Shown here one piece after another: positions 21,038 to 55,009 of a stretch of 64,000 nt of DNA. Under the pieces are notes generated by a model. The model did not search any database. It was given only the letters and a program-made list of their open reading frames with translations, and had not been told where the DNA came from. The translations under genes were made by a program, and so were the position numbers. The stretch lies in NCBI GenBank assembly GCA_000004985.1, contig GG738888.1; one strand, 5' to 3'. This stretch comes from Naegleria gruberi (taxonomy: Eukaryota). Numbering within the stretch: position 1 is the first letter of the stretch; every line of letters starts with the position of its first letter.

Positions 21038-22762
21038 ATGAAAAGAACAACTACACAGGAATCTTCGGAAGAAGCACTCTCAGAGCAATCATCATCCAAA
21101 AAGCTAAAACTTGATCAAAATTGTCAGCTTGGTCTTTATTCCTTGCACTCAGATATCAAACTTTACATTTTAGAATTTATTCAATTTTTTCTTTCTCGTC
21201 ACTTGATAGTTTCTGAATTTGATGAGCATTCGTTAGAGCTTGAACATGTTGATGTTTCATCGAAGGAGAAATTGTGGGAACATACCAAGGTGATGGCTAG
21301 GAGACAATTGTTAAAGTTAATGTTTGGTTATTTCGTGGATGAAAGTAGACGAATTCATCTCCTATTCAAGCATGTGAATTTTTGTGCAAGTGGTATTTTT
21401 CATCAACATGAGTTGTTCACAGAGTTGAGATTTAGAGATTTGAAATCAATTGAGTATTCGAGAAATTACTTGTTTTCAAGTAAATATTTTGATTTTAAAG
21501 AGTATTTGCCGAGATTGGAAGCTGTTTGGGGATTAAATATTGAAGTAGAAGAGGATGCAAAGAGTTTTCTTGCTCATGATTTGAGTAGAATGAAATCTGT
21601 TTCTTTTGGTTACCTCGAGAAAGATGTTTGTGTACCAGAATCTATTGGATTTGAAACTTTCTTTTCCAAATTGACCAATCTTACCACTCTCGAACTGTCT
21701 TGTGGTTATATTGATGAAGAGTTTGTTTTTGCCCTGATGAAAAGCGTAAAACATTTGAGAAAGGCCACATTCACAGAGGCCACCTTGAACAATGATGCCT
21801 TACAAATGTTATTGGAACAAGCAGAGTTTTTGGAGGAGTTGGATGTTAGCATGCCAAATGATTCCTTCGATCTTGATTATATATTTGATAGAGTCAAGAG
21901 GCCACTCAAGCTTACTAAACTTTTTGCTGAGAGTAATGATGTTACAGAAAAATTCTTTGTAAATATTGTAAAGGCAGCAAAATACCTTGGTAATTTGAAA
22001 GTTTTATCAATCTCACCTTATATGATCAATGATGAAGAACTTTGGAAAAATTTATTTAATAGCTTCCCTCAATTGACTGAGCTGGAACTAAGCGATCAAA
22101 CTTTAACAGAGTCAATCATGTCACATATTCATGTATTGAAAGAATTACGCTCTCTGAAATCGAATTTAGAAACCACCAAAGGTCTTGAACTTCTTCTCCA
22201 TTTCAAGTCACTCACTCTCTCATGCTTGACTAGAGAAACTAATTTGGATTTCTCCAAGCTGAACCATTTGGAATTTCTTGCCATTGATGCCTTGTACAAT
22301 ACCATATTGGACAATTTCGATAAGGATGAAAGCTTACCAAAGTTAAAGAGAGTCAAACTTTACCTTATTAATGATGTTGAACGCACTATTGATGAAGTTA
22401 AACAAATTGCAGAAAAAAGGCCTGAAATTAGATTTTCCTTGATATTGCATGAAGGTGTAACTCCAGTCGATATCTTTGAGAGAATTCTTTCCTGTAAAGG
22501 AATTGATGAATTGGATAGTTTTAATGCAAAAATTCCAGATGCCATTGAAACTAACTCCACCCTTAAATCCTTAACTATACTTAACGCGAAATCATTAGCT
22601 AATTTGGAACTTTTACAAAACAACAAGACTTTGGAAGTATTGAATCTCTATTCAGCGGATATTTTTGAAGGTGAATATGTGAGTGAAATTTGTAATTTAT
22701 TCCGTAACTCACAAGCTGAGCATATTTCACTTATTGATCCATCTATTGTTGGTGAACCATAA
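21038..22762 (+). CDS. F-box-like / leucine-rich repeat protein, 574 aa
   Basis: Start context is aaaaATGAAAAG. The N-terminus has YSLHSDIKLYILEFIQFFLSRHL, which is F-box-like. Repeated L-rich segments follow (LTTLELSCGY, LKVLSISPYMINDEELWKNL, LTELELSDQTL, LEFLAIDAL). Confidence 0.5.
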   Translation: MKRTTTQESSEEALSEQSSSKKLKLDQNCQLGLYSLHSDIKLYILEFIQFFLSRHLIVSEFDEHSLELEHVDVSSKEKLWEHTKVMARRQLLKLMFGYFVDESRRIHLLFKHVNFCASGIFHQHELFTELRFRDLKSIEYSRNYLFSSKYFDFKEYLPRLEAVWGLNIEVEEDAKSFLAHDLSRMKSVSFGYLEKDVCVPESIGFETFFSKLTNLTTLELSCGYIDEEFVFALMKSVKHLRKATFTEATLNNDALQMLLEQAEFLEELDVSMPNDSFDLDYIFDRVKRPLKLTKLFAESNDVTEKFFVNIVKAAKYLGNLKVLSISPYMINDEELWKNLFNSFPQLTELELSDQTLTESIMSHIHVLKELRSLKSNLETTKGLELLLHFKSLTLSCLTRETNLDFSKLNHLEFLAIDALYNTILDNFDKDESLPKLKRVKLYLINDVERTIDEVKQIAEKRPEIRFSLILHEGVTPVDIFERILSCKGIDELDSFNAKIPDAIETNSTLKSLTILNAKSLANLELLQNNKTLEVLNLYSADIFEGEYVSEICNLFRNSQAEHISLIDPSIVGEP

Positions 22763-25618: not shown

Positions 25619-27850
25619 ATGATGATTTCTTCCAAGACGAACGGAACACGGAATGGTGATATTCATCAGCTGCAAAATCATCATCATACCAATGAGACAA
25701 TTACGGAATTTCCATCACACACTAATGAACATGAGTATTATGATCTTAAAAAGGAGGCTCCTCTTCAATTTTTTGATGAGAATGATAAGGATTTGTGGGA
25801 AAATAAGGAAAAACAACAAGTTGGATTGAAATCAGAGGAAAAGATTGGAGTGGCTGATCCAAGAACTGGATTCGCCAATACAGAAAAGACAAATACCTCT
25901 TCCGATGGAGAGGGTCATTGGGAAGCAACAATTGGAAGGTTTCTATTAAGATTAACAACTGCTAGGAGAATTGTTTCTCTAGTTCTTCTCTGTCAATATT
26001 TTCTTCTACTATTGGGTGCCTACCAACAGGGAACAACAATGTTTTGTATAATGTTATTCACCTGTATTCTTGGAGTAATTAATAATAGCAAATATGTTAG
26101 ATTATCCTTCACCCATAGTGATGATAATGTGGGACATTCGGAGGAGAGAAATAGAGTCTTGATAAGTTTGGCCATCTTCTCTTTTAGATATTGTTTGTTT
26201 CCAGAGCTTCGGATTGTGTTGGTACCATTGTATTTGCTAATTGTCATGTCCTCAAATGTTTTGAGTATCAATTCGTGGTTTTACACATTGGCTCCTATTT
26301 ACTTTACTTTGGCACATTTTGGATGCTCTGGTGTTTATGGATTTATCCAGCATGGAATTTCAAAAGAGTTCTATGATAACTGGGCCTTATTCCTCTCAAT
26401 ATTGATTTTCAGTTATTATGTGATTTCTACTTCAGTGCATTTGAGATCGAAATTGGACAAGTTGGAGCAGACAACAGCTCAGTTGGAGAATGCTCTCTCT
26501 GCAAAAAGTGTATTTCTGAGGCATATTTCACATGAATTTAGGTTTGTATTGAAATTTATGTTTCTATTTTAAAAAACGTTTTGTTTTGTAGATCACCATG
26601 TTTGAGTAGTTTGGGAAGTGTTGAATTATTGAGGGAAACCACCTTGACCGATTATCAGAGAGATTTAGTGGAGACAATTGCATCATCGGATGGAATTTTA
26701 TTGAACCTTATTGAGGATGTTCTCACACTAGTGAAAATTGAACATGAGGAAAGAATTGCTGAAAAGGAGGAAATTACTGAAAAAACAAAATTCTTGACAG
26801 TTTTCAGTTTGGATAATTGTGTGAAAATGATTGGAAATATTATTAAGAGTTACTCTACTCAATTCGAAGTGAATGTTTGCGTTTCAGTTGAGGCTCTGGC
26901 AAAGAACGTTTACGTGAGAGCCAATCAAACAAGAATTCATCAAATTATTTCCAATTTGATGACCAATAGTGTGAAAGCGTCTAAAAAGGGTGATTCAGTT
27001 GAGTTGAGGTGCTATTTGGATGGAATAGAATCTGTTTCGAATGGTGTCACCGAACAAAATGTTGTTTTTAAAGTTATAGATCATGGCATTGGTATTCCAA
27101 AAGAGAAACAGGAAAGAATCTTTGAGCCATTCTCTCAACTTCACAATTTGAATGAATCTGTTTATCCAGGAACAGGATTGGGTTTGTCAACGGTATGTTT
27201 CTATGTATTCTTGCTAATTTCAAATATCATTTAGGTTCTTCATAATGTGAGAGCAATGAAAGGAAATATCATTCTCAAATCGGATCTACATCAAGGAGCC
27301 GAATTCACAGTTACCTTACCGCTAGAAGTTGTAAAACCTGATGAAAAAGATCTGTCGACAGAACAGCACGATATTGACCCTTCCATTAAGAGACAATTGA
27401 AAATTCAAGAAAATTACATTAAACTCTTCTCAACCTTTGATAGATCGGGAGAATGTAAAGGGGAGGCCAGTATTTTGGTAGCTGATGATAATGCCATCAA
27501 CAGAAAAGTCATTCTCAAGCTGATTGAAAGTCTAGGATATAAAGCAGATGCTGTTTGTGACGGGAAACAATTGGTCGAACAGTATGATCCAAAGAGGCAC
27601 AAATTGATCATTACAGATTTTGTAAGTTTTCACGCAATCTTAAATTTCAATAACCATTTATTAGAATATGCCTGTTATGGATGGATTGGAAGCGTCAAAG
27701 GAGATTAGAAAGATACACGGCACTGCAAGGATTGTTGCCCTCACAGGTGACGTCATGGCTGAGACACCAAGCTCTGTATTTGATAAGGTTCTTGTAAAGC
27801 CCATCCACAAGGGTACATTGAAGAAGTGTATTGAGGAAAGTTTGGTCTAG
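25619..27850 (+). CDS. Hybrid sensor histidine kinase with multi-TM N-terminal sensor, HisKA, HATPase_c and a C-terminal receiver; join(25619..26541,26592..27192,27235..27621,27665..27850)
   Basis: About five hydrophobic helices sit in residues 100-270. The H-box HEFR|SPC is split by a 50-nt intron (GTTTGT...TTGTAG). The N-box is HQIISNLMTNSVKAS, with G1 VIDHGIGIP and G2 GTGLGLST. A 42-nt intron begins with GTATGT. The receiver has ILVADDNAINRKV...ITDF|NMPVMDG, split by a 43-nt GTAAGT intron, then ...KVLVKPI. Confidence 0.85.
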
Positions 27851-29357: not shown

Positions 29358-31787
29358 TCATCTTTGGTTCCTCCTTTTCTTTGAGCTTTTTCTTGCACTG
29401 CTTTTCATACTTTTGTTGAATGGAAATTCTTGTTTGTTCGGGTATTGTTTCAGTAAATGAGGAAGTTGTGATAGGGATTGAAAATTGTCAACCATAAAGT
29501 TTTCACATGCATTTTGCAACGCTTTATCGTTGTGAAAAGTAGCCACCTCGAAAATGGAGCAAACATTCGATTTATCCAATAAAGAAGCTACCAAGGTTCT
29601 GCAACATGAGGCAAGCTCATCCATATCAAATAAGAGTGAATATATCAGTAAACCAAGGGCATTATTTGGATTCAATTGTAATCGATCAGTGTACAAGTAT
29701 TTCAACATGTCAATCATTACTTCCTTATAATAATCTTTCAAATGGACTGTCTTTTCTATTGTTTCAAGCATTCCACTACTGACAAGCATTTTGGAGAAGA
29801 ATGGTGATCTTGATAGGAATAATCTATGAGCGTGAATGATAACTTCTTCATTTGTACCTTGGTTGGCTGTTTCATTGTTATTATCCAAGACGAGAGTAAG
29901 ATCACTATCGACTGAATCACCCAATAAGGTATTGAAATCATTTTGTATCGTGTTGAGAATTTCCATTGTAGTTTCAATATTCTTTGATTCTGCTGAAGAG
30001 TAAATCTTTTGAATGATAGGATAATGCTTTTGTTCAGATGTTGCTTGAACGAAGGAAAGAAATGGAAGAGATTCACTAGCTTTCAAGTGAATAGTACCAG
30101 TATATAGATATTTGAGGTATTTCATCAGAGTATTCGAATCACATTCTGCTATATCAACTATTATCATTTCCTTTTCCAAAAATACTCCCTCCAATTGATT
30201 GGTATTAATCCATTGTTTGCTTGATTGTATCTTTTGGTACAGTATTGGACACCTGGCTTTGATAATACATTTGTGAGCCAAAATATAAGGAGAGCTGCTA
30301 CTGGGGGCTAGGTCATTAACTTGGAATGATACATCGCAAAGATAACCTTCCTCTCTCTTTTGATTCAGATATTGAAGTACAGAAACTGACTTGAAAGAAT
30401 CTCCTACATTCAATAATTTCGAGAATGATCGGTGATTCTTTTCCTTTTGCGAGGATCCAATAGCAAATACTTCCCCTTTCAATGTTGTCAAACACTTGTA
30501 ACCAGAAATATTTTGCTTCATTTCATCAGAAACAATTTCAATAAAATTCCACTTATTATCAATAATATCATATCCATAGAAGCAGTCAGATATTCCTTCT
30601 GATTTGTTTCCTCCATAAATAAAAAAGGATCGTTCATTAACACTAAATGAACAATGCTTGAAAAGTGGAGGTGGAATAATTGATTGCACAATTATTTCAG
30701 TCCAAGTTTTGCTAGAAATATCAAGCATGAATAAATCATTGAGTATTTTGTCGCCAGTAGTTACTCCTCCATAAATAAATATTGAATTGGATACTTTGCA
30801 TGCAGAATGTCCATATCTAGCTGATGGCCATCTTCTTAGCTCTTTAAATTGTTTAGGGGGTGAATATGTTGTACAAGTAAAGGGATTATAACTCGCTCCA
30901 TTAAAATATATCATATAGAGATTTTCATCTAATACACCCTTATCAGATTTACCTCCAAATACATACAGATACAATTTGTTTTCAATTAATACCTTTGTCA
31001 TTGTAAAGTGGATTCTATTGGGCAAAGCAGACCTTTCCACTTGAGTTAAATAGGATAGATTTAAGGGATCAGTAACCTTTTCAATTCTGTGAATTTCCCC
31101 TTTTCCAAATATGAAAATTAGTTGGTCAAGTTCTATCATTTCATATCCAATTAAACCAATTGGCAAGCGAATATTTTTGTAAAAAGGGCCATGACATGCC
31201 AAATATAAATTCTTATAGACATATAACACATTTGATGCAATATCATAGCTAATGAAATCGTCATGCATGACATTTCCAGTTCTACCTCCATAAACAAACA
31301 GAAATTTGCAATCACTAGACATGCAACTCAAATACTCAGTTCTACTTAGAAGCTGCTGTACAAAGCTAAATGATTTTGCCCTTGGATAGTGCTCAACTTC
31401 AAATCTTGGATATTCCAATTTCTTTTCGAGCATCTCCTGCTTTGACTTATAGTTATACCAAGTAAATTCGTTTTTCATCAAATATTTGTAGTTTTCATCA
31501 TATTTTGCTGTTCCAGATAGAATAATCACTTGAGGATCCAGTGCATCAAAAAACAAGGATAATGGCTGAGAAACATCCAAATCCAAATTAATTTCCAATT
31601 CCTTGTTTGAAACTTTTTCATCGACAACAACATTTAAATCATCATTATTCAATTCCTGCTCCTGATCAATTAATATTATTGTTTCTCTATTTTCCTTCTT
31701 ATTTGATGGAAGAATTTTCCTTGTTGTTTTCTTCTTATTTTGTTTCTTTTCCGAAAGCTTTTTAAAAACCAATCCATCAAATGACAT
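29358..31787 (-). CDS. LZTR1-like protein: N-terminal Kelch beta-propeller followed by two BTB/POZ domains
   Basis: Kelch motifs include YGHSACKVSNSIFIYGGVTTGDKILNDLFMLDISSKTWTEI and FIYGGNKSEGISDCFYGYDIIDNKWNFIE. Two BTB-like segments follow: CDVSFQVNDL...YILAHKCIIKARCPILYQKI and DLTLVLDNNNETANQGTNEEVIIHAHRLFLSRSPFFSKMLVSS. The N-terminus is basic (KKQNKKKTTRK). Confidence 0.65.
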   Translation of the reverse strand: MSFDGLVFKKLSEKKQNKKKTTRKILPSNKKENRETIILIDQEQELNNDDLNVVVDEKVSNKELEINLDLDVSQPLSLFFDALDPQVIILSGTAKYDENYKYLMKNEFTWYNYKSKQEMLEKKLEYPRFEVEHYPRAKSFSFVQQLLSRTEYLSCMSSDCKFLFVYGGRTGNVMHDDFISYDIASNVLYVYKNLYLACHGPFYKNIRLPIGLIGYEMIELDQLIFIFGKGEIHRIEKVTDPLNLSYLTQVERSALPNRIHFTMTKVLIENKLYLYVFGGKSDKGVLDENLYMIYFNGASYNPFTCTTYSPPKQFKELRRWPSARYGHSACKVSNSIFIYGGVTTGDKILNDLFMLDISSKTWTEIIVQSIIPPPLFKHCSFSVNERSFFIYGGNKSEGISDCFYGYDIIDNKWNFIEIVSDEMKQNISGYKCLTTLKGEVFAIGSSQKEKNHRSFSKLLNVGDSFKSVSVLQYLNQKREEGYLCDVSFQVNDLAPSSSSPYILAHKCIIKARCPILYQKIQSSKQWINTNQLEGVFLEKEMIIVDIAECDSNTLMKYLKYLYTGTIHLKASESLPFLSFVQATSEQKHYPIIQKIYSSAESKNIETTMEILNTIQNDFNTLLGDSVDSDLTLVLDNNNETANQGTNEEVIIHAHRLFLSRSPFFSKMLVSSGMLETIEKTVHLKDYYKEVMIDMLKYLYTDRLQLNPNNALGLLIYSLLFDMDELASCCRTLVASLLDKSNVCSIFEVATFHNDKALQNACENFMVDNFQSLSQLPHLLKQYPNKQEFPFNKSMKSSARKSSKKRRNQR

Positions 31788-32206: not shown

Positions 32207-34549
32207 ATGAAGTTGGTACAACGGGAGACTTATTGGTTTGCAGTGATGCAATTGATTCTACTAACATTTCTGTTAAAAATTGTTATTGCAGATTCGAATA
32301 TTATTACTACAGTTTCGGATATTAACCAATTTAAAAAGTTACCATCCTCTATTACTATTGTGAACATTCCCTCTTATTATCATGTATTCATAAACATGAT
32401 GGCATCTCTTGCCTCTGTTAATGGAACGAACCCTAGGCCGAAAGATATTATCAATAGATGGCAAGAATCAGGTTCATATTGTGTTTTAACACGCGATTTC
32501 AATAATTTAGAGCCGAGCAAATCGTCCTTCAACTTACCTGATTCCCTATCGAACAGTACAACATTTAAGCAAGTTGGGGTAGACAATATTCCTGTGGAAA
32601 TTGCACATTACTCTTACTCAATTCTTGAAAATGCTCCTTCTCTTGTGATAACACCTCCAGAAGTTTTGAGTAGATGGTTGTTGATTTTGAAAAATTCAGT
32701 GTTTGAAAAGCAAGTAAGGTTGTCCTTATGGAATAGTACATTTAGTGATTCATTTACAATATTCCCCTTGTATGAAAGTCCGTCTTCCATTAGCTATGTG
32801 CAATTGGATGAGGTAGTAAATGCAAAGGATATAATAGTGAGCGAACTAGAAGAATTAATATCAAACGATTTGGAAAAATTCAAGAAATATTATGAAATTA
32901 ATATTGAGGAAGGAAAGGGATTGGGATATTCACCTATTCTTCAATATCAAACTTGTAATTCTTCATTTTCTAATTCTACACAAGTATTGGAGTATCACTT
33001 AGCTCTATTTAGGATTGATTTTTATTTGAATTTGATTTTAAGGAATAAGGATGTGATTAGTGTTGGAGCATTTACACAAGATGGGAAATACAAAACACAA
33101 ATCAAATTCATGGATGAAAGTGTCAGAAGCATTGATTATGCCTACTTAATTCAAGCCATTAGAAACATGCTTATTATTGGAAAGTTTGACTTGTATCTAT
33201 CCTTTTCTAATAATACAGCAACATTCTCTTTGGAGTACTACCAAAATTTAGAAAAGAAGGATTTGAAATCTATTTATCTGTTAATGGTCCACCCTGTTTG
33301 CTTTAGTTTTTACTTTGACTATGCAGATATTTACTATTTTAAAGATGGGCTATTCTTTCCAATTATTGTAAATGATGTTATTTACTTTGGCATTGCACTT
33401 TTTGGAATAATTCTATATCTTGCCAATATTGTGAGTTATCTGTTCAACTTTTTGCTGTTCATTAAGAAGAGAATTCTCTTGCCAATTATTGGACCTCCTT
33501 CTCTGATTGTTTTGAGCTTGTTTTTCACAATCTTAATCAGATCTAAACTTGCATCCGCTGGTTATTGGATTCAAATGATTATTGTTTTCTTCCCAGCTCC
33601 AGTATTAATTGGTAGTTATTTGGTGTGCCTGTATAGATTTGCCTACTTGAAGAATATTGATCTGTGCCACAAATATTGTTGTGAATCACTTAGGTTACAC
33701 AGATGTTTGACTTCTTCTCCACTTGCTGTTTTGTTTTCATTGATTTCAACTGTAGTTTGTTTCATAATTTGTCTCGTGCCAATAATTGCTGCAAGCGTTG
33801 CTCTAGCCTACTCATTCCTCAACCTCCCCCAGGAGATATTCATTACCATGTTTGCTATTGAAGTGATTTTCATATTGGTATGTGCTGGAATATTCTTCGT
33901 TGCTGATTTGGTTAGTAGTGGATTCAAAACCATTCGTAAGAAGGGAATTTCGTACTACCTCTTCTTTGACGATCCCATGGGATATAGAATTGATTTAATA
34001 TTGATGGTTGTTATGTTGATTTCAGTAATTCCAATAATTGCTGGCTCAGTTCAAGATACGACTTCATTCTTTGTGGTGAGAAAGATTGTCTCAATTATAT
34101 ATTTTGCCTTGTTTTATTTTGTTATTGGAGGAACTGTGACATTATCTTATTGGATTAATAGATTGAGAAATTTCAATGTGAAATCAGATTCAACCCAATT
34201 GGAAATTTACTTACGAGATGATGAATTCAGAAAGATCTTTAGAACGTATTGTGCTAATGAATATTCCACAGAAAATTTTATAATTTATGAAGATTTGGAA
34301 AACTTGGATGTGAAAGGAAAATGTACCGAGGAAGAAGTGAAAGAATTTCATCTCAAATACATGACCTCAACTTCTCAATTCGAAGTGAACTTTCCCTCCT
34401 TTGTGAAAAAACGATTTGAGGAAATTTTAGAACAATTAGAATCTCAAACCATCTCCAAACCAACGTCTCCATCAACAGCAAGTGTCAGCACCAACAATTT
34501 ATTGGAATCAGAATCAGTTTTTCTCACTACCAGTGCCATGGTACACTAA
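32207..34549 (+). CDS. 7-8 TM membrane protein with a large N-terminal ectodomain and a C-terminal RGS domain (receptor-RGS fusion)
   Basis: ATG at 32207 (the track ORF starts 3 nt earlier at TTG). Signal peptide is MKLVQRETYWFAVMQLILLTFLLKIVIADS. The ectodomain is about 380 aa with many N-x-S/T sites. Seven or eight hydrophobic helices occupy residues about 390-650. The C-terminus is an RGS fold (EFRKIFRTYCANEYSTENFIIYEDLENLD...KEFHLKYM). Confidence 0.65.
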   Translation: MKLVQRETYWFAVMQLILLTFLLKIVIADSNIITTVSDINQFKKLPSSITIVNIPSYYHVFINMMASLASVNGTNPRPKDIINRWQESGSYCVLTRDFNNLEPSKSSFNLPDSLSNSTTFKQVGVDNIPVEIAHYSYSILENAPSLVITPPEVLSRWLLILKNSVFEKQVRLSLWNSTFSDSFTIFPLYESPSSISYVQLDEVVNAKDIIVSELEELISNDLEKFKKYYEINIEEGKGLGYSPILQYQTCNSSFSNSTQVLEYHLALFRIDFYLNLILRNKDVISVGAFTQDGKYKTQIKFMDESVRSIDYAYLIQAIRNMLIIGKFDLYLSFSNNTATFSLEYYQNLEKKDLKSIYLLMVHPVCFSFYFDYADIYYFKDGLFFPIIVNDVIYFGIALFGIILYLANIVSYLFNFLLFIKKRILLPIIGPPSLIVLSLFFTILIRSKLASAGYWIQMIIVFFPAPVLIGSYLVCLYRFAYLKNIDLCHKYCCESLRLHRCLTSSPLAVLFSLISTVVCFIICLVPIIAASVALAYSFLNLPQEIFITMFAIEVIFILVCAGIFFVADLVSSGFKTIRKKGISYYLFFDDPMGYRIDLILMVVMLISVIPIIAGSVQDTTSFFVVRKIVSIIYFALFYFVIGGTVTLSYWINRLRNFNVKSDSTQLEIYLRDDEFRKIFRTYCANEYSTENFIIYEDLENLDVKGKCTEEEVKEFHLKYMTSTSQFEVNFPSFVKKRFEEILEQLESQTISKPTSPSTASVSTNNLLESESVFLTTSAMVH

Positions 34550-35010
34550 CTCGCCAACAGAGCTTTATCAAAAAAACGATATCTTCAAAGGAGATTACGA
34601 CTCTCCTTCTTCCAGAAGTACTAAGAAACCTCATCGACACCTTCTCTCGAATGGAGCACACTCACGAATTTAAACAGTGGAAAGCATTACAGAATTTTAA
34701 AGCAAAGCAAATGGGACTGATTGGAAAGGTTATGCAATAGTTTTAGGTACATGGAGAGCTCAATAACAAATGAATAATTGCATTATAACATTATAACTGA
34801 AAGATTCATAACCGCGCTTTACAGGACATGCTAAATTCCACAAACAGACCTAATCTCGTGTCTAAAATTCCAAAAACGTTGCCATAATCAACAACAGATT
34901 TCTTTTCCAAATTTTAATTTTAAAAATGTCATCTTTTTAAAGATTAGATCTAACCATTTTAGAAAAAGAAGATTTGAGAGATTCACAACAAAAGCAAATC
35001 ATAATAAAAT

Positions 35011-35423: not shown

Positions 35424-37523
35424 TTATTTTCTCAACCGTTTCATGAATGCTGCCTTGATCTTTGATAACTTTTTAGAGGTTGATGAATGTGCATGTGAAG
35501 GGCTCGATTCATCTCCATAAAGACTTTTCGTCGACATTCGGTTACTTGGAGAAACTGAATCATCGATTGAAATATTTAGAGAATCAGTGTTTGGTGGAGG
35601 ATTACTGAAGAGATTGTGAGTGGAACGTTGGCTCTTTCTCCAAGAGAAGGATCCTGACTTGGTAATTTGTTTTGGTTTGGTCTTCTTTCTTTCAATTGTT
35701 TTGATATTCTTCAAACCATTTTGTAAGGTATTTGAGAAGGTTTGCATTATTTGTTGCATGTGTTGTTGAGGAAGCTGATATTCCTTCAGGATTGCCTTGC
35801 AGGAATCTTCTGGAATATTTCCAAGTTTATCCTTAGCGTAGTAGAGAGTCCCTAATGCTGTGCTGGTGTGGCCTGAGAGTGATTCAACAAAATCAATTGT
35901 TGATTCCAGGCATGAAATATATCTTTGATGTGTAATAAATGTCTCAATTTCAACATTTGAAATGACTGATCTCGAACTAAACATTGAAGAAACAGAGTTT
36001 CTATCAACAGGTCGATCCGACATGGTATCCAATTGAATCAAGTGTCTCGAAATCCATGAGGCAGCTTGTTTGGCACATCCTTCGATTGCTAAGTGTATTA
36101 AATTTCTCTGTTGTTGATCAGTTTCTGTGACAAGGAGGTTGACAAACCTGTCTGTTCCTGTTGTGGCGCAATAATCCTTTAGGAATTGAGATAAAGTGGA
36201 GAAGGCCTTCATATCATTTAGAACAACACATTCCATAATGATATTTCTTCCGAATGAGTTCTTTTGGAGGAAACTCTTCTCGAATGTATCCACACCAAAA
36301 ATTAAAGTTCCTTTGAAAAGGAAGGTTGCAAAAAACATCTTTTCTTCTTCCACAATCTCATTGTTTGCATTAACATTTTGTTGACTCGAATAATTGCTAT
36401 TTCCCAAACTTCCTACAGAAAATGATCCTCCAGAGCTGACGCTACCATTCAGGTAGCTTTCGTTATCTGAAACTAAGGATCCTAACATGAACTTGTCAGT
36501 TGAGTCAGCAAACTCTAAATCAGAAATTGTGTCAGTTCTCTTCTTTCTTCTTCTTCCACCTCTACTGTCGCTGAGTAAGGAGAAAAGTGGATTTTCTTCC
36601 CTTTGGTTTTTCCTTAACAATAAATTAGGTTTAATTTTTGCCAAGTATTCAACCATTTGAATGTCCTTTTCTCTGACAGCATAGTGAAGTAATGTCTCAC
36701 TATTTCCAACAAGAACGTCCACTTTAGCTCCAAATAATTGAAGAAGGTCGCAAAGGTCGTAATCTTTTCTTTTAAGAGCAATATAGAGAGGGAGGTATCC
36801 ATACTTGTCATGTTGAGTGTTCAATTGATCTTGAACACATTTAAAACTACACAAATAAACACAAGCATCTTGTGCTCCGGATTGACAAGCATAGAAAATT
36901 GGGGTAGCGTCATGATTATCGGTTGCTAAAAGTAATTGATTTACAAGTGGGGATCTAGGGGAGGATGATTCAGTAAAATTGGATTCTTCGAATGGTGATT
37001 GTTGTGCATCAATGTGGTGAGCAACTTCTCCAGTTAACAGCCATTGCAAAATATCAACTTGATTCGATTTTGCAGCAATATGGACCAAGTTACAATCTTG
37101 ATGTTCTGGGAATGTAGTATAGAGCAACATGTACCTGACATCTGCTGTCAAATCAGTTGCTGTCTGATTGAGAACACTATTCGCCAGCAATGAAGATGAT
37201 GAAGATAGCGAACCACAAGTACTCTTTCTATTCGATTGATATTCTTTAGCCATATTCTGTAAACTTTCTTGAATGAATTTCAAATCTCCTCTCAGACATG
37301 CATCATAGAGCATGGCCTTGACAAAATCCTCTTCAGTTGTCATGCCATTAGCTCCAGCAATTGTAGGAGGCGATGAAGAATTAGGTTCAGATAAGTAATT
37401 ATTCGGCGAAGACAATGTTCTATGATGAATAGTACCACTACTATCTTGTCTTTCTAAACTAATTTCAGGGACTGGAATGATACCAACAAATGAGTTGGCA
37501 TCGAAAGTTTCAAATTCAGTCAT
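35424..37523 (-). CDS. Ankyrin-repeat protein, 699 aa
   Basis: ATG at 37523. Ankyrin repeats include NLVHIAAKSNQVDILQWLL, TPIFYACQSGAQDACVYL, YLPLYIALKRKDYDLCDLLQLFGAKVD, TLLHYAVREKDIQMVEYL and NLIHLAIEGCAKQAASWI. Confidence 0.7.
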   Translation of the reverse strand: MTEFETFDANSFVGIIPVPEISLERQDSSGTIHHRTLSSPNNYLSEPNSSSPPTIAGANGMTTEEDFVKAMLYDACLRGDLKFIQESLQNMAKEYQSNRKSTCGSLSSSSSLLANSVLNQTATDLTADVRYMLLYTTFPEHQDCNLVHIAAKSNQVDILQWLLTGEVAHHIDAQQSPFEESNFTESSSPRSPLVNQLLLATDNHDATPIFYACQSGAQDACVYLCSFKCVQDQLNTQHDKYGYLPLYIALKRKDYDLCDLLQLFGAKVDVLVGNSETLLHYAVREKDIQMVEYLAKIKPNLLLRKNQREENPLFSLLSDSRGGRRRKKRTDTISDLEFADSTDKFMLGSLVSDNESYLNGSVSSGGSFSVGSLGNSNYSSQQNVNANNEIVEEEKMFFATFLFKGTLIFGVDTFEKSFLQKNSFGRNIIMECVVLNDMKAFSTLSQFLKDYCATTGTDRFVNLLVTETDQQQRNLIHLAIEGCAKQAASWISRHLIQLDTMSDRPVDRNSVSSMFSSRSVISNVEIETFITHQRYISCLESTIDFVESLSGHTSTALGTLYYAKDKLGNIPEDSCKAILKEYQLPQQHMQQIMQTFSNTLQNGLKNIKTIERKKTKPKQITKSGSFSWRKSQRSTHNLFSNPPPNTDSLNISIDDSVSPSNRMSTKSLYGDESSPSHAHSSTSKKLSKIKAAFMKRLRK

Positions 37524-40955: not shown

Positions 40956-43900
40956 TTATTCGAAACGTTCCAACATTAATTCCAACTTGGTCAAAATTTC
41001 ATCAATGGTTGGTCTTTCTTTTGGATCTTTTCTCCATGCCCGTTTAATTAATTCTGTAATTTCATAAATTATTTCATAACAGTTAACATGTGAATTATTC
41101 GTTTCAGACAGGAATTCCCCACACCACTCTCTACATTCACCAATATCTGAGAATGGAATTATTGGTCTCAGATCTCCCTCACAGATACTCTTATGGAAAT
41201 GGTAAGTACTATTAAATGTATTTGCTTTTGATAACTTTAACTTTTTTAGAACTTTTGAATCGGTACTTTGATAAGGTTCCATAATTTCGAATAAAAGTTG
41301 CCACATAATTATGGACAAACTATAGATATCTATTGATCTAGCATCATCTCTTCCAATTTCACCTGAAAATAGCTCAGGACTCATGTAATTAAAAGTTCCA
41401 ATTTGTGAAGTAACTGCTGACATGGTATGAGAAGAGAATGCTCTTCCTAAACCAAAATCAGCCAATTTGGCAGTTCCATTTTTATCCAACAGAATATTTG
41501 CAGGTTTCAAATCTCTAAATAAAATTAAATTATGTTAATCCTCTTCTTAGAAAACTTACCTGTGAACAATATAATTTGGTTCCAAATGATGAAGATAATT
41601 AATACCACTTGCGACATTGACCAAAATCTCAAGTTTTTGTTTCAACGAACACTTTAAATAACCTCTTTGCAAAGAAGCAATTAAATTTTCCAAACTCTTA
41701 TCCATACATTCCATACATATAAATCTCTTTGTTGGGGTGGATGAAACTCCGTAAAATGAAATAATATTGGGATTTCTTAAATTGCTTAATAGAATTGCCT
41801 CATTCTTGAAATCATTTTCTGAAATATCCATATTATTCAAATCGAATACTTTGACAGCAACTAACATGCCATGGTATCTGGTTTGGAAAACACATCCAAT
41901 TCCTCCTTCTCCCAGTCTCTGAATAGGTTGATAATATTCAGCAATATTTGAAAACTTACTCTTATTGGTTTATCCATATTTAATTGCTCAATTGGAATTA
42001 TAAACTTATTCTCCTCATCAGAGCTATGATGTGAATCAATATTTGTAGAATCGTACAATTCAGTTTGTGTCAGTAATCTTTCGTCCAATTTGAGATCAGT
42101 ATTAATAATCCTTTTGTATTTTTTGAAAATGAAAATCAAGATGATTGAAATAATTGAGATAATTACTGTAAAGAATCCAACCAATCCAAGTACTACTCCT
42201 AACACTATAATATTACTTTCACAATTCTCTCCATTGAATCCTTCTTTACATTGACAAGTATTGTATTTAACACATTTTCCATTTTCACTACATGCCTTTG
42301 ATCCAGATTCTCCAAAACAAATTGGAATTTCACAATTAGATCCCTTGTATCCATTCTTACATTCACAAACATTTGGTGAAATACATGAACCATTCGAAGA
42401 ACAAACACTTGATTGATCACTTGAGATGCCAAAACATATTGGTACTTTACATTCCATTCCACTATATGCTGAGCTACATTCACACTTGTTAAAATTAATA
42501 CATGTTCCATTTCCATAATTGCAAGAGTGACTCTCATTGGCAGCTTTTCCAAAACACACTGGAATGCACTCGACCATATTCGTACTGAGAATGAAACCTT
42601 CCTGACAATAGGGCTTCATCTTTTGTATAATGTTAAGTTTGGAATCTGCAACATAAATTTCTCCCTTTCCATCATTCGAGAATGAAATTCCTTCTGGAAT
42701 TCCCAATGAAACATCATTTGCTGGTGATTCCTTTAATGAATAAGAAGATCCTTTTCCACCTCCAGCTATTGTTGAAATTATTCCATTTCGAATTCGTCTA
42801 ATACGATAGTTTTTAGAATCTGAAAAGACAATGTCTTCGTATGGAGAAATAATTTTCAAATAAGTGGGTGAATTAATTTGTGCCTTAATTGCCAAATCCT
42901 CATCTCCAGAAAAGCCTGCAATTCCATTTCCCGCCAAGGTTGATATAGTGCCATTTTTGTGAATAACTCTGATTCTGTGATTATTTGTATCTGAAAATAT
43001 GAGATTTCCTGTCGATTCTGAATAAACAATGCCTGAAGGATATGCTAAGGATGCTTGTGTAGCATAAATATTATCCAAGTTAAACCCATAGCCTCCATTT
43101 CCAGCTATTGTCGAAATAATTCCATTTCTAATTAATCTTATTAAATTGTTTTTCACATCTGTCAAGTAAATATCATTATTTGGAGCAACAGAGATACCAA
43201 GACAGTTTCCAATAGCATTTTCTGAAGGACCAAAGTCGCCAATTCCTCCTGCTAATGAATGAATGACATTGTTACCTGGATAATAAACTCTTAATCTATC
43301 ATTTCTATTGTCAGAAATTAGTACACGTTCTATTCCTCCTTCATCAACATACGAATGTACAAACACTGGCCCATTTAGTTTTGCCACAAGCGCATTTCCT
43401 CCATCTCCCTCTAAACCTGGAAACCCTGTTTGGCCTACCACAGTTCTAATAGTGAAATCACTTATTGAAATTGCTCTAATTTTGTTATTGAAAGTATCTA
43501 AAGTTCGATAATTATTAGAACACAAAGTCAAAGACAAAACCTACCTGCAATATAGATGGCTGTAACTCCAAAACTAATACTGTGAGGATAGAATAACTCA
43601 CTGTTAATTGCTGGTCCCTCATCACCTCCACTTCCATCAACACTTGATCCTGCAATAGTTTTCACAATGAAATTGGGAATTAATAATCTTATTCTATGGT
43701 TGAACGTATCTGCAACTAATATTCCCATTGTAACCGTAAAAACCACGTCCATTGGTGAGTTGAGTTGGGTTTCCAGTAGTAATTTACCATCACCATTAAA
43801 ACCTGGTATGCCTGTACCAGCAAAAGTTTTAACAGATTTGGTAGTTATTGAAATGGACCTTATCATGTGATTTCCTGAATCGGCAACATAGACATGTCCA

Positions 43901-45720
43901 TCTCCAAAGGATAGTCCTGTTGGACGATTAAAAGTACTATTCAATGCATGATCATTAATAGATCCCACAGTTCCTGGTTGACCAGCAAAAACAGAAACTG
44001 AAAAGTCTTGTAAATTAATAGCTCTAACACAATGATTATTAGAATCTGAAAATAGTATATATATATCCCTATTATCAATATCTACTACAGTGGTTATCCC
44101 ATATGGTCCATCAATACCATGCTTTTCTTTACTCGCAATAGTCGAAATAGTTCCATTCACTGTACTAATCATCAATACTCTATTATTATTTGTATCTGAA
44201 ATGAAAATTAACATATCACCCTTTTGTTGTAAGCTAGTTACTCCTGAGGGTCTGTTTAATACTGATGCCTTAACATTTGTCTTGATATCATTCAAAGATG
44301 ACAACTTATTTCCAAACAAAATGGAATGACTATTCATATTACTATTGTTGAATTTCACTAGAAAATTACTGGACCAATGGCTGATATCATTTGATACAAG
44401 TAAATTAGAATCCCTATCTAAAGCAATTGAATATGGATTTGAAATTACAGGTGTTGCCTTATAGAGTTCATTAGGAGATAATGGAATCAAGTCATTTTCA
44501 ATATTCTCTACTTTTCCACTCACTAGAGAATATCTGAGAATAGACGATGACCCAGATTCTGATATTAAAAGAGATGGATTTCCCTGATTATAAGAATAAA
44601 TTACATCTCTTGGAGATCTCAGAAGGAATGGTGCCTCCAATTCATTTGTGTTAAATACTCTCATTCCATAACTTGTCAATAGGGACGAAATAATTCCAGT
44701 TTTCAAATCAATTTGTCTTATTATACTATAGCCTATTAGCCACAATTTTCCTCTAATGAGTGAGATCGAAATATAATAACTCAATTGAGCATCAATTGCT
44801 AACCCAGAATCTCCCCTAGATCCCACAGTTGCATAAACTCCACTTATTACCTCAGAATTTACCTTGTTATTACCCTGAGAATCAATGGTAATTGTGGTTT
44901 TAAATAATTGATTATCTGGATATTGAGCGTGGTAGAATATTTCAATATTATTGTTCTGTGGGGTTAAATCCAATTCAAATCCCTGAATAAAACTTAAATC
45001 ACTTCTGCTCTGATAAAGAGTAGTAGTATTTCCATTCGAAAGTAACTTTCCAATACTATTATAACCAACAAGAAACAACTCATCGTTTGAATTGACATGC
45101 AAAGAGCTTATATCTGATTGTAGTGTTATCACTCGTGTTGTTCGTTGCCTTTCATCAATCATGTAAACTTTCTCTTTACCAAATATCGAATAGTAAATGT
45201 GAACATTCTCATTTGGACTACTCATATGAACAGCAAGTAAACAATTGGCAGCAAATTTCAATTCACTAAATGAATTAAATCCCTGTGAGGTAAAATCACA
45301 TGAATCTCCTGCTATTCTCTCTATCAAGTTGCTTGTCACATTAAATTTTGATAAAACACATTGTTTATCATTCCTACTTTCAACAACGTAGAAAATGTCA
45401 TGATGAATATTATTAATACTTGGTTGAGCAATGCATATGATATTTTCCAACAGTTTATCCACTCGTCCATTCGAAATATTCAATCTCATCAATGAAGAAA
45501 GTAAATCGGCTGAATGAAGTAAGTAAACGATATCTTCGGAATGTTGGAAGGATGGATAAACCTTTCGTATATCATAATCTAACCATGATGTGTTTTTCTG
45601 GCCGAATAGAGGTTGGATGGTGTATTTAACAGGTGTGTAGCCTGTTGATGATGCTGTCACAGTTGTCAAATAGATATTGATCAAAAAGCAGAGAAAAATC
45701 CAAGAGACGTATCTTTCCAT
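40956..45720 (-). CDS. Receptor-like Ser/Thr kinase with NHL-repeat beta-propeller(s) + EGF-like Cys-rich modules + TM + kinase; complement(join(40956..41514,41560..41918,41960..43497,43545..45720)), ~1540 aa
   Basis: ATG at 45720 with signal peptide MERYVSWIFLCFLINIYLTTVTAS. More than 20 NHL-type repeats (...FSDSNNHCVRAI..., ...VADTFNHRIRLL..., ...SDTNNHRIRVI..., ...SDSKNYRIRRI...) cover about 1000 residues. A 47-nt intron GTAGGT...TTTAG links ...IYIAG|DTFNNKIRA. Three or four EGF-like modules follow (C..C..NG.C....C.C..G..G..C). The TM helix is IIVLGVVLGLVGFFTVIISIISIILIFIF. A 41-nt intron splits KPIR|RLGEGGIGCVF. The kinase then has VAVK and HR|DLKPANILL (45-nt intron GTAAGT...TTTAG), followed by DFG and GTFNYMSPE. 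Confidence 0.8.
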
Positions 45721-45958: not shown

Positions 45959-47155
45959 TTAATTCAAGATGCATTTCTTTTCTTTTTTTAAACTATTTAA
46001 ATATTTAATATCTTTTTCAATCACTTGTTGTAATATTGAATTTAAATTTGTTTGATTACCAAACCTAATTAACTTAACACCTTCTAGAAATGCATTTTCT
46101 ATACCCTCACCAGTTTTAGCACTACAAATAACTATATTTGTATTTGTTAGTTGATACTCATTAATAATATTAATAATTTCATTTTTCAATTTATCAATTT
46201 CATTGTTATCAGTAATTAAATCCATCTTATTTAATGCAAATATAATTGGAATATCTTCTGAATCTCTGATTCTAATTAATTGTTCAACTAAGGTCTTACA
46301 GAATTCAGCTGAGGAAAAATTAAATAAATCGCAAACATTGATAAAACAATCACCAGTTCTCATATATTGATCTATTCATATTAAATTATTGAGATATTCA
46401 AATCAACTTACCCCTATCAAATTAAATGATAAACAATCACATTTCACAACTTACCTCATAGCTGAGTATTCCTCTTGTCCATCTAATTAAATTAATTAGG
46501 ATTATCAAGTTTAATAATTCAATAAATGAAAATACTAACATGTATCTAATATATCAAGTTCAAACACCCTTCCATCAAATTCAATATTTCTTCTATAATC
46601 ATCATAATAACTTGGATCATATTGATCTGTATATCTATTCTGAATAAATCTAACCACAATCGATGATTTGCCTTATATCAAATATAATTACAATAAAAAT
46701 TAGATGAATAACATACCAACACCACCATCACCTATCATTACAAATTTAAGGTAATTGTCAGTAAAATCTAAATATTTAAATTGTTTATATTTAATATATA
46801 AAGTTAACAAAACAATCCTTTTTAAATTTGTTTTTTTAATTATTTGTTCCTTAATTATTTCATTATTCACTTTTATTGGTAAATAATTTTTCAATAACTC
46901 AAAATAAAATTCATTAAAATAATCACATTGATCATCATCGTACATTAATTTTTTACAACTTGTTTGAAAATTTAATAATTGTTTAATTTTAGTTGTATAT
47001 TTAATATTATAAGAATAACTAGTATCAAGAACATATGATAATATATTTAAATGTATTTCCAAGGGTAAATTAACGAACGTATTTTCATTATTGAATGATC
47101 GCATTTTTTTTAATTTAATTAATAATAACAAAAGTTCATCAAAGTAATCTTGCAA
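45959..47155 (-). CDS. F-box-like N-terminus + canonical Ras-family small GTPase; >=4 introns (exons ~46717..47155, 46540..46671, 46455..46482, [46412..46413?], 45959..46371)
   Basis: The N-terminus NLPLEIHLNILSYVLDTSYSYNIKYTTKIKQLLNFQTSCKKL is F-box-like. G1 GDGGVG|KSS is split by a 45-nt GTATGT intron. The G2/G3 region is [37 protein letters not shown]. The last exon has DQYMRTGDCF..., then G4 FALNKMDL and G5 CSAKTGEG. Confidence 0.7.
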
Positions 47156-47540
47156 ATCAAATAAAGCTATGGAAAGTCATCACAATAACAATGTCTAGTG
47201 GTGAAATAAAGAAGATATAAAGACACTCAGCAGTAAGAAACTAAAAGAAGACAATTGATGAAAAAGAGCTTATCGGAATAAGAGGAGTAAATTGCAATTA
47301 TTCTTCCCTGTCCGTCTTTTTGCACTGATGAGGCAAAAATACATTAAATTCATCATCAACACCCTCTCTTATTGAGGAGATATTAATGATGATTATTCAA
47401 CGACAATCAAATAAGAAAAAAATAAGAACAAGAATATTATCCTTCTTCCTTTTAAAATTGACAGACTCTTATGAAAAATGATGAACCACTTGAGAAGAAA
47501 ACATGCCCTGCCAACGGCTTCTACAACAGAGACTGTGAAT

Positions 47541-51411: not shown

Positions 51412-51571
51412 ATTTTCACAAACACAATTCTATATTCTTAAATTCTAGAGTGTCATCTTGTGAATGTTGCATTGTAAAGTAACTCAAATCCAGACATGAA
51501 ACTCTAAAAATAAATTTTAAAATCAAAAAAAAATAGCTCCAATAACACAATTAATTCATCAATTTTTAAAA

Positions 51572-54708: not shown

Positions 54709-55009
54709 TCCTGCATGCAACACGAAAGAGATTCAAATCGAGTCTTTTTATTAATTATTTTCTTAAATTGCTAAAATAAACCGAACCTCATCATGTGCGA
54801 GGGTACCATGACGTTCGTTGAAAAGGCTTTTTTTTGTGTGAGATTTGTGCTAGCGATTTATCAACCAACCAAAAACATTGGCGCCAAATTTTGTTACAGG
54901 ACCTCGTACGCACAAAATGTGTGTGCTTTAAATTTTGAGCCTCGCAATTATCATTACTTCCAAACAATATAAAAAAACAATTAAACAATTCACTTAGATA
55001 ATCATCATC

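What the first reader, a model, noticed from the sequence alone, without database searches (positions are those of the whole stretch)
32207..34549. Seven-TM receptor fused to an RGS domain, with a ~380-aa glycosylated ectodomain
The topology is signal peptide, large ectodomain, 7-8 TM helices, then a C-terminal RGS box (EFRKIFRTYCANEYSTENFIIYEDLENL...). This is the architecture known from plant AtRGS1-type self-regulating GPCR-GAP proteins. It is rare elsewhere. The large ectodomain, roughly 50 kDa, is atypical and suggests a ligand-binding sensor that directly GAPs a G-alpha subunit.
Basis: seen in the sequence. Interest (0 to 1): 0.55.

Follow-up and report, generated by a model that had tools for sequence, protein, structure and literature searches.

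The report
Naegleria seven-helix receptor with RGS domain
This is a real gene of the amoeba Naegleria gruberi for a surface receptor whose tail can switch off G proteins, but it is one member of a large receptor family already described in Naegleria, so it is ordinary apart from an uncharacterised outer domain and a faulty public gene model.

Summary
The ORF at 32207-34549 (+) encodes a signal peptide, a ~355-aa ectodomain with six N-glycosylation sequons, seven TM helices (N-out, C-in) and a C-terminal RGS box.

The window is Naegleria gruberi nuclear DNA. The ORF stop at 34549 is not the gene's end. The last three RGS helices, which carry the family-invariant N-DT-R-T-W residues, lie in another frame at 34561-34740. 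They need a short intron or a 1-nt frame correction. The public model (716 aa, "predicted protein") is truncated at both ends.

On its own the RGS box falls below Pfam's cut-off (20.7 vs 23.9 bits). A profile of 22 relatives matches 35 solved RGS domains (best E 3.9e-10). All canonical G-alpha contact residues of RGS4 are present.

The protein belongs to a family of at least 142 clusters. Every named member is from Naegleria or Willaertia. Bosch et al. 2022 (JBC) described 28 such 7TM-RGS proteins in N. fowleri, many with complex ectodomains, and showed GAP activity on self-activating G-alpha subunits. The architecture is therefore neither rare nor atypical here.

The ectodomain matches no known family. 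There is weak evidence for a periplasmic-binding-protein-like fold.

Verdict: a new member of a known kind, of low to moderate interest.

The parts
32207..32290 (+). Start codon and signal peptide (aa 1-28; hydrophobic core WFAVMQLILLTFLLKIVIA, likely cleavage after VIA)
   Evidence: This is the first ATG of the ORF. Hydropathy peaks at aa 10-28. Paralogues P0002, P0003 and P0004 have equivalent hydrophobic N-termini. The public model P0001 starts at Met65 and lacks this segment.
32291..33361 (+). Ectodomain (aa 29-385), alpha/beta, six N-x-S/T sequons, conserved C92, H134, C250, Y263-H264, R269, C365; no Pfam family; possibly a diverged periplasmic-binding-protein-like fold
33362..34150 (+). 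Seven-transmembrane domain (aa 386-648) with family motifs KKR-x-LLP (ICL1), YRFAYLKN (end of TM3) and KG-x3-LFFDDP-x3-RIDL (ICL3/TM6)
   Evidence: Hydropathy and positive-inside count. AF2 helices. Foldseek matches to GPCR bundles. Family consensus motifs. No sequence-level match to solved GPCRs.
34190..34540 (+). RGS box, first part (aa 662-778): helices with EYSTEN (E685, S687, E689, N690) and FEVNFPS (N728), then the start of a ~40-aa Ser/Thr-rich insert
   Evidence: Pfam RGS E 5.8e-4, profile positions 6-83. phmmer matches RGS10 and RGS17. Residue mapping onto RGS4 chain 1agr_E.
34541..34560 (+). Frame-restoring gap: shortest candidate intron GTACACTAACTCGCCAACAG (20 nt). Alternative donors at 34517 (44 nt) or 34484 (77 nt) use the same acceptor at 34560. 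A 1-nt assembly or real frameshift is also possible. This segment contains the ORF stop TAA at 34547-34549.
   Evidence: Candidates enumerated. Three-frame translation. Typical local introns are about 41-83 nt with GTAAGT, GTAGGT or GTAATT donors, so none of the candidates is typical. The junction is unresolved.
34561..34740 (+). Second coding segment (aa 779-837 of the 837-aa model, stop TAG at 34738-34740): end of the insert and the last RGS helices, LLLPEVLRNLIDTFSRMEHTHEFKQWKALQNFKAKQMG
   Evidence: The frame is open and matches the C-termini of P0002 and 20 other relatives. Family-invariant N801, D804, T805, R808, T812 and near-invariant W818 are all present. Stop coordinate.

Best explanation
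The locus encodes a Naegleria gruberi member of the heterolobosean seven-transmembrane RGS (7TM-RGS) receptor family.

Shown here:
- A cleavable signal peptide puts a ~355-aa ectodomain outside the cell, probably glycosylated.
- Seven helices fold as a GPCR-like bundle.
- A cytoplasmic RGS box follows TM7 directly.
- The RGS box keeps every canonical G-alpha contact residue.

Inferred:
- The RGS box binds the transition state of a Naegleria G-alpha subunit at the membrane and accelerates its GTP hydrolysis. This holds self-activating (fast-exchanging) G-alpha subunits in the GDP state.
- An extracellular cue sensed by the ectodomain/7TM unit changes that GAP activity or the receptor's surface residence, as glucose does for AtRGS1. 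This releases G-alpha signalling.
- The ~40-aa Ser/Thr-rich insert between the sixth and seventh RGS helices, shared by the closest paralogues, is a plausible phospho-regulatory loop. This is speculative.

Gene model: the functional protein needs the segment at 34561-34740 joined to the ORF by a short intron or a frame correction. The public 716-aa model is truncated at both ends.
For: Organism and family:
- 100% identity to an N. gruberi protein, plus a 40%-identical paralogue with Pfam RGS.
- 142 representative clusters at E<=1e-3. Many match over both the 7TM and the RGS regions.
- Every named hit is from N. gruberi, N. lovaniensis, N. fowleri or Willaertia magna.

RGS identity:
- 29 of 50 aligned relatives hit Pfam RGS at E<=1e-3, and 42 of 50 at E<=1.
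- A 22-sequence RGS profile hits 35 solved RGS domains, best 3.9e-10. For RGS10, RGS7 and RGS2 the match spans the whole domain.
- E685, S687, E689, N690 and N728 align with RGS4 E83, S85, E87, N88 and N128.
- D804 and R808 sit in the family-invariant N-x2-DT-x2-R motif, equivalent to RGS4 D163 and R167.

Topology.

Function of relatives: N. fowleri expresses 28 7TM-RGS proteins. The RGS domains of Nf 7TM RGS2-4 accelerate GTP hydrolysis on Nf G-alpha 2, 3, 5 and 7 and bind the GDP-AlF4 form. This is abolished by the switch-I G-to-S mutation (PMC9283941). N. gruberi has a very large G-alpha repertoire (PMC8584482; PMC3971589).
Against: - The single-sequence Pfam score is below the gathering cut-off (20.7 and 19.4 vs 23.9 bits).
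- The reading frame is broken inside the RGS box. None of the candidate introns has the donor or the AT-richness of the three local introns inspected. A truncated, GAP-dead product or a pseudogene is not excluded.
- No expression, ligand, G-alpha partner or GAP data exist for this protein.
- Whether ligand binding modulates GAP activity is unknown even for the N. fowleri proteins.
- A 40-aa insert inside the RGS box could perturb it.
Confidence: 0.75

Rival explanations
1. Bifunctional receptor. The 7TM bundle is a genuine GPCR that activates a G-alpha subunit (GEF) on ligand binding. The tethered RGS box is a built-in terminator that sharpens or desensitises the signal, rather than the primary output.
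For: The bundle superposes on class A GPCRs (target-normalised TM-score about 0.5). Naegleria has both slow- and fast-exchanging G-alpha subunits, and both types engage 7TM-RGS proteins. Conserved intracellular motifs at the end of TM3 and in ICL3 could form a G-protein coupling surface.
Against: There is no sequence similarity to any solved GPCR and no Pfam 7TM family. No GEF activity has been reported for any 7TM-RGS protein in the papers read.
Confidence: 0.12
2. Decaying or truncated paralogue. The frame break at 34541-34560 is a real frameshift. The protein ends at ...TSAMVH and lacks RGS helices 7-9, so it is a GAP-dead 7TM protein or a pseudogene in a large, redundant family.
For: The ORF stops at 34549 and the public model ends there. 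The candidate introns are atypical: a 20-nt GTACAC donor or a 44-nt GTTTTT donor, against local GTAAGT, GTAGGT and GTAATT introns of about 41-83 nt.
Against: The downstream frame stays open for 59 codons to a stop. It retains every family-invariant residue (N801, D804, T805, R808, T812, W818). That is unexpected for untranslated sequence unless the lesion is very recent. A CACTAAC branch-like motif sits 11 nt upstream of the CAG acceptor.
Confidence: 0.1
3. The RGS box is a G-alpha-binding anchor or effector module without catalytic GAP function, like the RH domains of GRK2 or the mammalian RhoGEFs. It scaffolds activated G-alpha at a receptor that signals by another route.
For: The RGS box is divergent: its Pfam score is sub-threshold and it carries a 40-aa insert.
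Against: All canonical GAP-type contact residues are present, including the Asn equivalent to RGS4 N128. Related N. fowleri 7TM-RGS boxes are true GAPs that use the canonical interface.
Confidence: 0.05

Closest known systems
Naegleria fowleri 7TM RGS proteins (28 genes; Nf 7TM RGS1-4 studied; Bosch, Jeck & Siderovski 2022, J Biol Chem, PMC9283941)
   Same: Same genus and the same architecture: large ectodomain, 7TM, C-terminal RGS. N. fowleri 'RGS domain-containing proteins' are direct sequence relatives over 7TM plus RGS, for example P0066 at E 4.4e-11. The RGS boxes use the canonical G-alpha interface.
   Different: The studied N. fowleri proteins carry GPS motifs, EGF repeats and lectin-like domains. 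This protein has none of these in Pfam. Its ectodomain is an unannotated subfamily-specific domain shared with P0002-P0005 and, more distantly, with seven further relatives (P0007-P0009, P0012, P0021, P0024, P0034). It also has a Ser/Thr-rich insert inside the RGS box. There is no biochemistry for this protein.
Arabidopsis AtRGS1 (plant 7TM-RGS)
   Same: 7TM domain followed by a cytoplasmic RGS box. It acts as a membrane GAP on a self-activating G-alpha and is regulated by an extracellular cue, glucose (as summarised).
   Different: From general knowledge, AtRGS1 has only a short extracellular N-terminus and no signal-peptide-led 355-aa ectodomain. No plant protein appeared among the 20 named or sampled hits of the HMMER search. 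Homology of the 7TM parts was not tested. The resemblance is of architecture, not demonstrated common descent of the fusion.
Fungal class VI GPCRs (GprK/Rgs7-type 7TM-RGS) and Trichomonas 7TM-RGS
   Same: Same 7TM plus C-terminal RGS arrangement with GAP activity (titles and abstracts).
   Different: Different lineages. No sequence relationship was detected here beyond the RGS box. No large ectodomain is described for them in the texts read.
Class C GPCRs (Venus-flytrap ectodomain plus 7TM)
   Same: This applies only if the ectodomain is binding-protein-like. In that case a bilobed solute-binding module sits on a 7TM bundle.
   Different: Class C receptors use a type I (LIVBP-like) module and act as GEFs, from general knowledge. 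Here the weak structural matches are to type II NMT1/SsuA/TAXI-like proteins and the output is an RGS box. No sequence relationship was detected.

Membership tests
RGS domain (Pfam PF00615) | Score at or above the Pfam gathering cut-off (23.9 bits) | tested here: not met
   20.7 bits for the ORF and 19.4 bits for the spliced model. The profile match stops at position 83 of 117 because of the 40-aa insert.
RGS domain (Pfam PF00615) | Profile-level homology to solved RGS domains over the whole nine-helix box | tested here: met
   A 22-sequence family profile that includes the query hits 35 solved RGS domains, best E 3.9e-10. RGS10, RGS7 and RGS2 are covered over profile positions 5-137 of 147. 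42 of 50 relatives hit PF00615 at E<=1. Foldseek on the AF2 model finds RGS17 and RGS7.
RGS domain (Pfam PF00615) | Canonical G-alpha contact residues (RGS4 E83, S85, E87, N88, N128, D163, R167) | tested here: met
   E685, S687, E689, N690 and N728 align to them. D804 and R808 lie in the invariant N-x2-DT-x2-R motif. D804 and R808 exist only if the 34561-34740 segment is translated.
7TM-RGS receptors (AtRGS1-type architecture) | Seven TM helices N-terminal to the RGS box, with the RGS box cytoplasmic | tested here: met
   Seven hydropathy peaks after a signal peptide. K+R count is 15 inside vs 2 outside. AF2 gives seven helices. The fold is GPCR-like.
7TM-RGS receptors (AtRGS1-type architecture) | GAP activity on a cognate, self-activating G-alpha | not testable with these tools
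   Shown only for N. fowleri relatives.
7TM-RGS receptors (AtRGS1-type architecture) | Common descent of the 7TM part with AtRGS1 | not tested
   No AtRGS1 sequence was compared. Every named hit of the HMMER search that was looked up is heterolobosean.
Heterolobosean (Naegleria/Willaertia) 7TM-RGS family | Sequence homology spanning both 7TM and RGS regions to other members, with the family motifs | tested here: met
   66 clusters at E<=1e-10, many covering about aa 380-825. Near-invariant R422, P426, R477, G580, D589, P590, R594, D596, G641 and G642 are present in the query.
Adhesion-GPCR-like 7TM-RGS (GPS/GAIN, EGF, lectin ectodomains) | GPS motif or EGF/lectin domains in the ectodomain | tested here: not met
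   No such Pfam hit at E<=1 for the query, nor among the 25 families listed for 50 relatives.
Periplasmic-binding-protein (type II, NMT1/SsuA/TAXI-like) ectodomain | Significant sequence or fold match of the ectodomain to binding proteins | tested here: inconclusive

The most novel reading that the evidence does not exclude
The ectodomains of this heterolobosean 7TM-RGS family, including a strongly diverged version in this protein, descend from a bacterial-type solute-binding protein (type II, NMT1/SsuA/TAXI-like). Naegleria would then have built small-molecule or nutrient sensors by mounting a binding-protein clamp on a 7TM bundle whose output is a GAP. This would be a mirror image of class C GPCRs and has not been described in the papers searched.
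Probability: 0.25. Interest if true: 0.5.

Novelty: new member of a known kind. Interest (0 to 1): 0.25.

Why it matters
7TM-RGS proteins underpin the 'GAP-receptor' mode of G-protein control, in which a self-activating G-alpha is held off by a receptor-tethered RGS. This mode is thought to dominate outside animals and fungi.

Naegleria is the richest known case, and its pathogenic species makes these proteins possible drug targets. This locus adds nothing new at the level of principle. It does give three practical points:
- The public N. gruberi model is truncated at both ends. It hides the signal peptide and a third of the RGS box, which is why the protein carries no domain annotation. Family counts based on such models will be too low.
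- It defines a subfamily with its own conserved, unannotated ectodomain.
- It raises a testable lead: ectodomains in this family may be solute-binding-protein derived, which would suggest what kind of ligands to screen.

Tried and rejected
- Bacterial or viral origin. I first considered a ciliate-, Trichomonas- or dictyostelid-like genome because of the low GC and the apparent tiny intron. The exact N. gruberi protein match settled the organism.
- Paralogue gene structure. Exact look-ups of paralogue genes P0002 and P0003, meant to compare intron positions, found nothing on record.
- G-alpha or other G-protein genes nearby. Pfam scans of 29 large ORFs in the window found none.
- GPCR relationship by sequence. 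A whole-family profile against PDB sequences returned only RGS proteins.
- Ectodomain identity by sequence. Pfam and NCBIfam gave no hit for the query. Profiles of related ectodomain groups against PDB sequences returned only spurious hits: desmoplakin and an LRR protein.
- Ectodomain identity by structure. Foldseek against PDB was not significant. The afdb50 library was unavailable.
- GPS/GAIN reading of the conserved Cys-containing beta-hairpin before TM1. No Pfam support, so it was dropped.
- Fixing the exact splice donor. 29 frame-restoring GT/GC...AG pairs exist and none resembles the local introns. This is left unresolved.
- Literature linking binding-protein ectodomains with Naegleria RGS proteins. 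None was found in the library.
Full report
**What is there**

The window is AT-rich (about 33% GC) and densely packed with long ORFs on both strands. Its first ATG is at 32207, giving 780 codons.

A search of 5.8 billion protein clusters returned a 716-aa 'predicted protein' of Naegleria gruberi that is 100% identical over 85% of the query. It also returned a 40%-identical N. gruberi paralogue of 883 aa with a precomputed Pfam RGS domain. The window is therefore nuclear DNA of the amoeboflagellate N. gruberi.

**Gene model**

The ORF stop at 34547-34549 falls inside the RGS box. In another frame immediately downstream the sequence reads SFIKKTISSKEITTLLLPEVLRNLIDTFSRMEHTHEFKQWKALQNFKAKQMGLIGKVMQ*.

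This stretch aligns with the C-termini of the paralogue P0002 (...VLAFEVVKNMVDTYSRLELTSEFNKWKELNDFKAEQMG) and of 20 further relatives. It contains every residue that is invariant in the family's last RGS helices: N801, D804, T805, R808 and T812, plus near-invariant W818. The coding sequence therefore continues to a TAG at 34738-34740.

How the two frames are joined is not settled:
- The shortest GT...AG interval is 20 nt (34541-34560, GTACACTAACTCGCCAACAG).
- Donors at 34517 (44 nt) or 34484 (77 nt) use the same acceptor, which is preceded by a CACTAAC branch-like motif.
- Three introns I could read elsewhere in the window are about 41-83 nt, AT-rich and start with GTAATT, GTAGGT or GTAAGT. 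None of the candidates is typical.
- A 1-nt assembly error or a genuine recent frameshift cannot be excluded.

At the 5' end, the paralogues P0002, P0003 and P0004 align from the hydrophobic N-terminus onward. The public model begins at Met65. The public model thus lacks both the signal peptide and the last third of the RGS box. That explains why it carries no domain annotation.

**Topology**

Hydropathy gives a signal-peptide-like segment (aa 10-28...KIVIA|DS) and seven TM segments between aa 386 and 648. Loops predicted to be cytoplasmic carry 15 Lys+Arg against 2 in the extracellular ones.

An AlphaFold2 model built on 50 relatives has pLDDT 76.5 and pTM 0.71. It shows the same seven helices followed directly by a helical domain. 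Foldseek against the PDB returns class A GPCR bundles (about 290-330 aligned columns, target-normalised TM-score about 0.5, E about 0.03-0.1) together with RGS17 and RGS7.

All six N-x-S/T sequons lie in the ectodomain. Two of them, N176 and N256, are conserved in position among paralogues. Glycosylation remains an inference.

**The RGS box**

On its own the sequence scores 20.7 bits (E 5.8e-4) against Pfam RGS, below the 23.9-bit cut-off. The match stops at profile position 83 of 117. Adding the downstream segment does not raise the score (19.4 bits). The reason is a ~40-aa Ser/Thr-rich insert (43% S+T) that separates the two parts. The three closest paralogues in the RGS alignment share this insert.

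At family level the identification is firm:
- 29 of 50 aligned relatives hit Pfam RGS at E<=1e-3, and 42 of 50 at E<=1.
- A profile of 22 RGS regions that includes the query matches 35 solved RGS domains, best RGS17 at 3.9e-10.
- For RGS10, RGS7 and RGS2 the match spans the whole box.

Aligned with RGS4 from the RGS4-Gi-alpha1 complex (1agr_E, sequence confirmed), the query has E685, S687, E689, N690 and N728 at RGS4 positions E83, S85, E87, N88 and N128. D804 and R808 sit in the invariant N-x2-DT-x2-R motif that corresponds to RGS4 D163 and R167. The automatic numbering is shifted there because two RGS4 residues were dropped. From established knowledge of the 1AGR complex, these residues contact the G-alpha switch regions. 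The box therefore looks catalytically competent, provided the second segment is translated.

**The family**

An exhaustive HMMER search of 1.84 billion representatives found 142 clusters at E<=1e-3 and 66 at E<=1e-10. Most match from just before TM1 to the end of the RGS box.

Every hit with a name among the 20 looked up is from N. gruberi, N. lovaniensis, N. fowleri or Willaertia magna. Several are already labelled 'RGS domain-containing protein'.

The family shares intracellular motifs: KRR-x-L-x-P after TM1, RF-x-YL(K/R)N after TM3, and KG-x3-FLFFDDP-x3-RIDL before TM6. It has no sequence similarity to any solved GPCR and no Pfam 7TM family.

**What is known**

Bosch, Jeck and Siderovski (J Biol Chem 2022, PMC9283941) report that N. 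fowleri expresses 28 seven-transmembrane proteins with C-terminal RGS domains. [quoted passage not shown]

The isolated RGS boxes of three of them accelerate GTP hydrolysis on particular Naegleria G-alpha subunits, including self-activating ones. They bind the GDP-AlF4 form, and this is abolished by the switch-I Gly-to-Ser mutation. The authors state that it is still unknown whether extracellular cues alter the GAP activity.

De Mendoza et al. (PMC3971589) found 7TM-RGS architectures in many bikont lineages, chytrids, filastereans and ichthyosporeans. They also found a lineage-specific expansion of G-alpha in N. gruberi. A review gives 44 G-alpha subunits for N. gruberi (PMC8584482).

The architecture is therefore not rare. 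In Naegleria a large ectodomain is the rule rather than the exception.

**The ectodomain**

It has no Pfam or NCBIfam match and no GPS, EGF or lectin signature. It is conserved, with C92, H134, C250, Y263-H264, R269 and C365. This holds in four close relatives (P0002-P0005, about 34% identity) and, at 14-18% identity, in seven more distant ones.

The AF2 full-length model is confident for aa ~130-380 (pLDDT 70-95) and poor for aa 28-123. An ectodomain-only model reached pLDDT 64.7 and pTM 0.73.

Evidence bearing on a binding-protein-like fold:
- Foldseek found nothing significant (E>1). Its list is headed by maltose-binding-protein fusions.
- Independently, the ectodomain of relative P0035 passes the Pfam NMT1/THI5 cut-off (22.3 vs 20.5 bits, E 1.4e-4). 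It also has a faint TRAP-TAXI hit.
- P0035's ectodomain group is clearly homologous to the main ectodomain group of the family (hhalign probability 96.5%, E 7e-10).
- The query's own group links to that main group only weakly (probability 15.5%, E 0.0017, 165 collinear columns ending at the conserved Cys before TM1). It does not link to the P0035 group at all.

I therefore treat a diverged binding-protein-like ectodomain as a lead, at about one chance in four. It is not a finding. No paper in the library connects binding-protein modules with Naegleria RGS proteins.

**Mechanism**

Shown here: the topology, the RGS identity, the conserved G-alpha contact residues and family membership.

Inferred from relatives: the protein acts as a membrane-tethered GAP that keeps fast-exchanging G-alpha subunits off. 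A cue sensed outside the cell changes that restraint.

Speculative: the Ser/Thr-rich insert is a phosphorylation-dependent switch, by analogy with phosphorylation-driven endocytosis of AtRGS1.

Rivals:
- A bifunctional GEF-plus-GAP receptor.
- A truncated, GAP-dead product or pseudogene.
- An RGS box used only as a G-alpha anchor.

**Surroundings**

None of the 29 large ORFs in the window encodes a G-alpha, G-beta or another RGS protein. The neighbours are a Kelch/BTB protein (29358-31787, minus strand) and an ankyrin-repeat protein (35424-37523, minus strand).

**Verdict**

This is a new, mis-annotated member of a published family, and interest is low to moderate. The one thread worth pulling is the nature of the ectodomain.

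Noticed in passing
window 32207-32398 and 34541-34740: The public N. gruberi protein model (P0001, 716 aa, 'predicted protein') starts at Met65 and ends at the ORF stop. It omits the signal peptide and the last RGS helices, so it carries no Pfam annotation.
   Followed up: yes
relatives P0035, P0010, P0020, P0039 (ectodomains; alignment A6): One subgroup of heterolobosean 7TM-RGS proteins has an ectodomain with a 'DL-x-(G/N)K(R/K)(I/V)A(V/I)' motif. One member passes Pfam NMT1/THI5, a solute-binding-protein fold. This subgroup is homologous to the main ectodomain type of the family (hhalign probability 96.5%).
   Followed up: partly
window 29358-31787 (-): The neighbouring gene encodes an 809-aa Kelch beta-propeller plus two BTB domains, an LZTR1-like arrangement.
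   Followed up: no
window 35424-37523 (-): The neighbouring gene encodes a 699-aa ankyrin-repeat protein with long Ser-rich low-complexity tails.
   Followed up: no
window 5493-9134 (-): A 1213-aa protein has a C-terminal protein kinase domain and an N-terminal region with Chlamydia-PMP-like repeats. It looks like a receptor-type kinase.
   Followed up: no
window 2285-4342 (-) and 16391-18911 (-): Two genes carry DUF4116 repeats. The second is fused to a protein kinase domain that is split by a ~41-nt intron (GTAATT...AATAG) inside the HRDL motif near 17230.
   Followed up: partly
window 41861-45720 (-): An NHL-repeat and teneurin-like EGF protein is split into two ORFs by a ~50-nt intron (GTAGGT...TTTAG) near 43500.
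   Followed up: partly
window 25619-27234 (+): The ORF at 26581-27234 has HisKA and HATPase_c domains, so it is a histidine kinase. It probably continues from the ORF at 25619-26572.
   Followed up: no
window 53419-54723 (-): A 434-aa ORF has a fungal-type Zn2Cys6 binuclear cluster domain (22.7 bits, cut-off 21). This is an unexpected domain for a heterolobosean.
   Followed up: no
window 49924-53413 (+): A tRNA pseudouridine synthase gene lies next to a T4 Rnl1-type RNA ligase gene (PF09511, E 1e-35).
   Followed up: no
window 46001-48000: This is the lowest-GC stretch of the window (0.259 against about 0.33-0.36 elsewhere). It contains no ORF of 200 aa or more.
   Followed up: no
window 59109-63257 (-), 21038-22762 (+), 56716-59064 (+): These long ORFs (1382, 574, 312 and 359 aa) have no Pfam match at E<=1e-3.
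   Followed up: no
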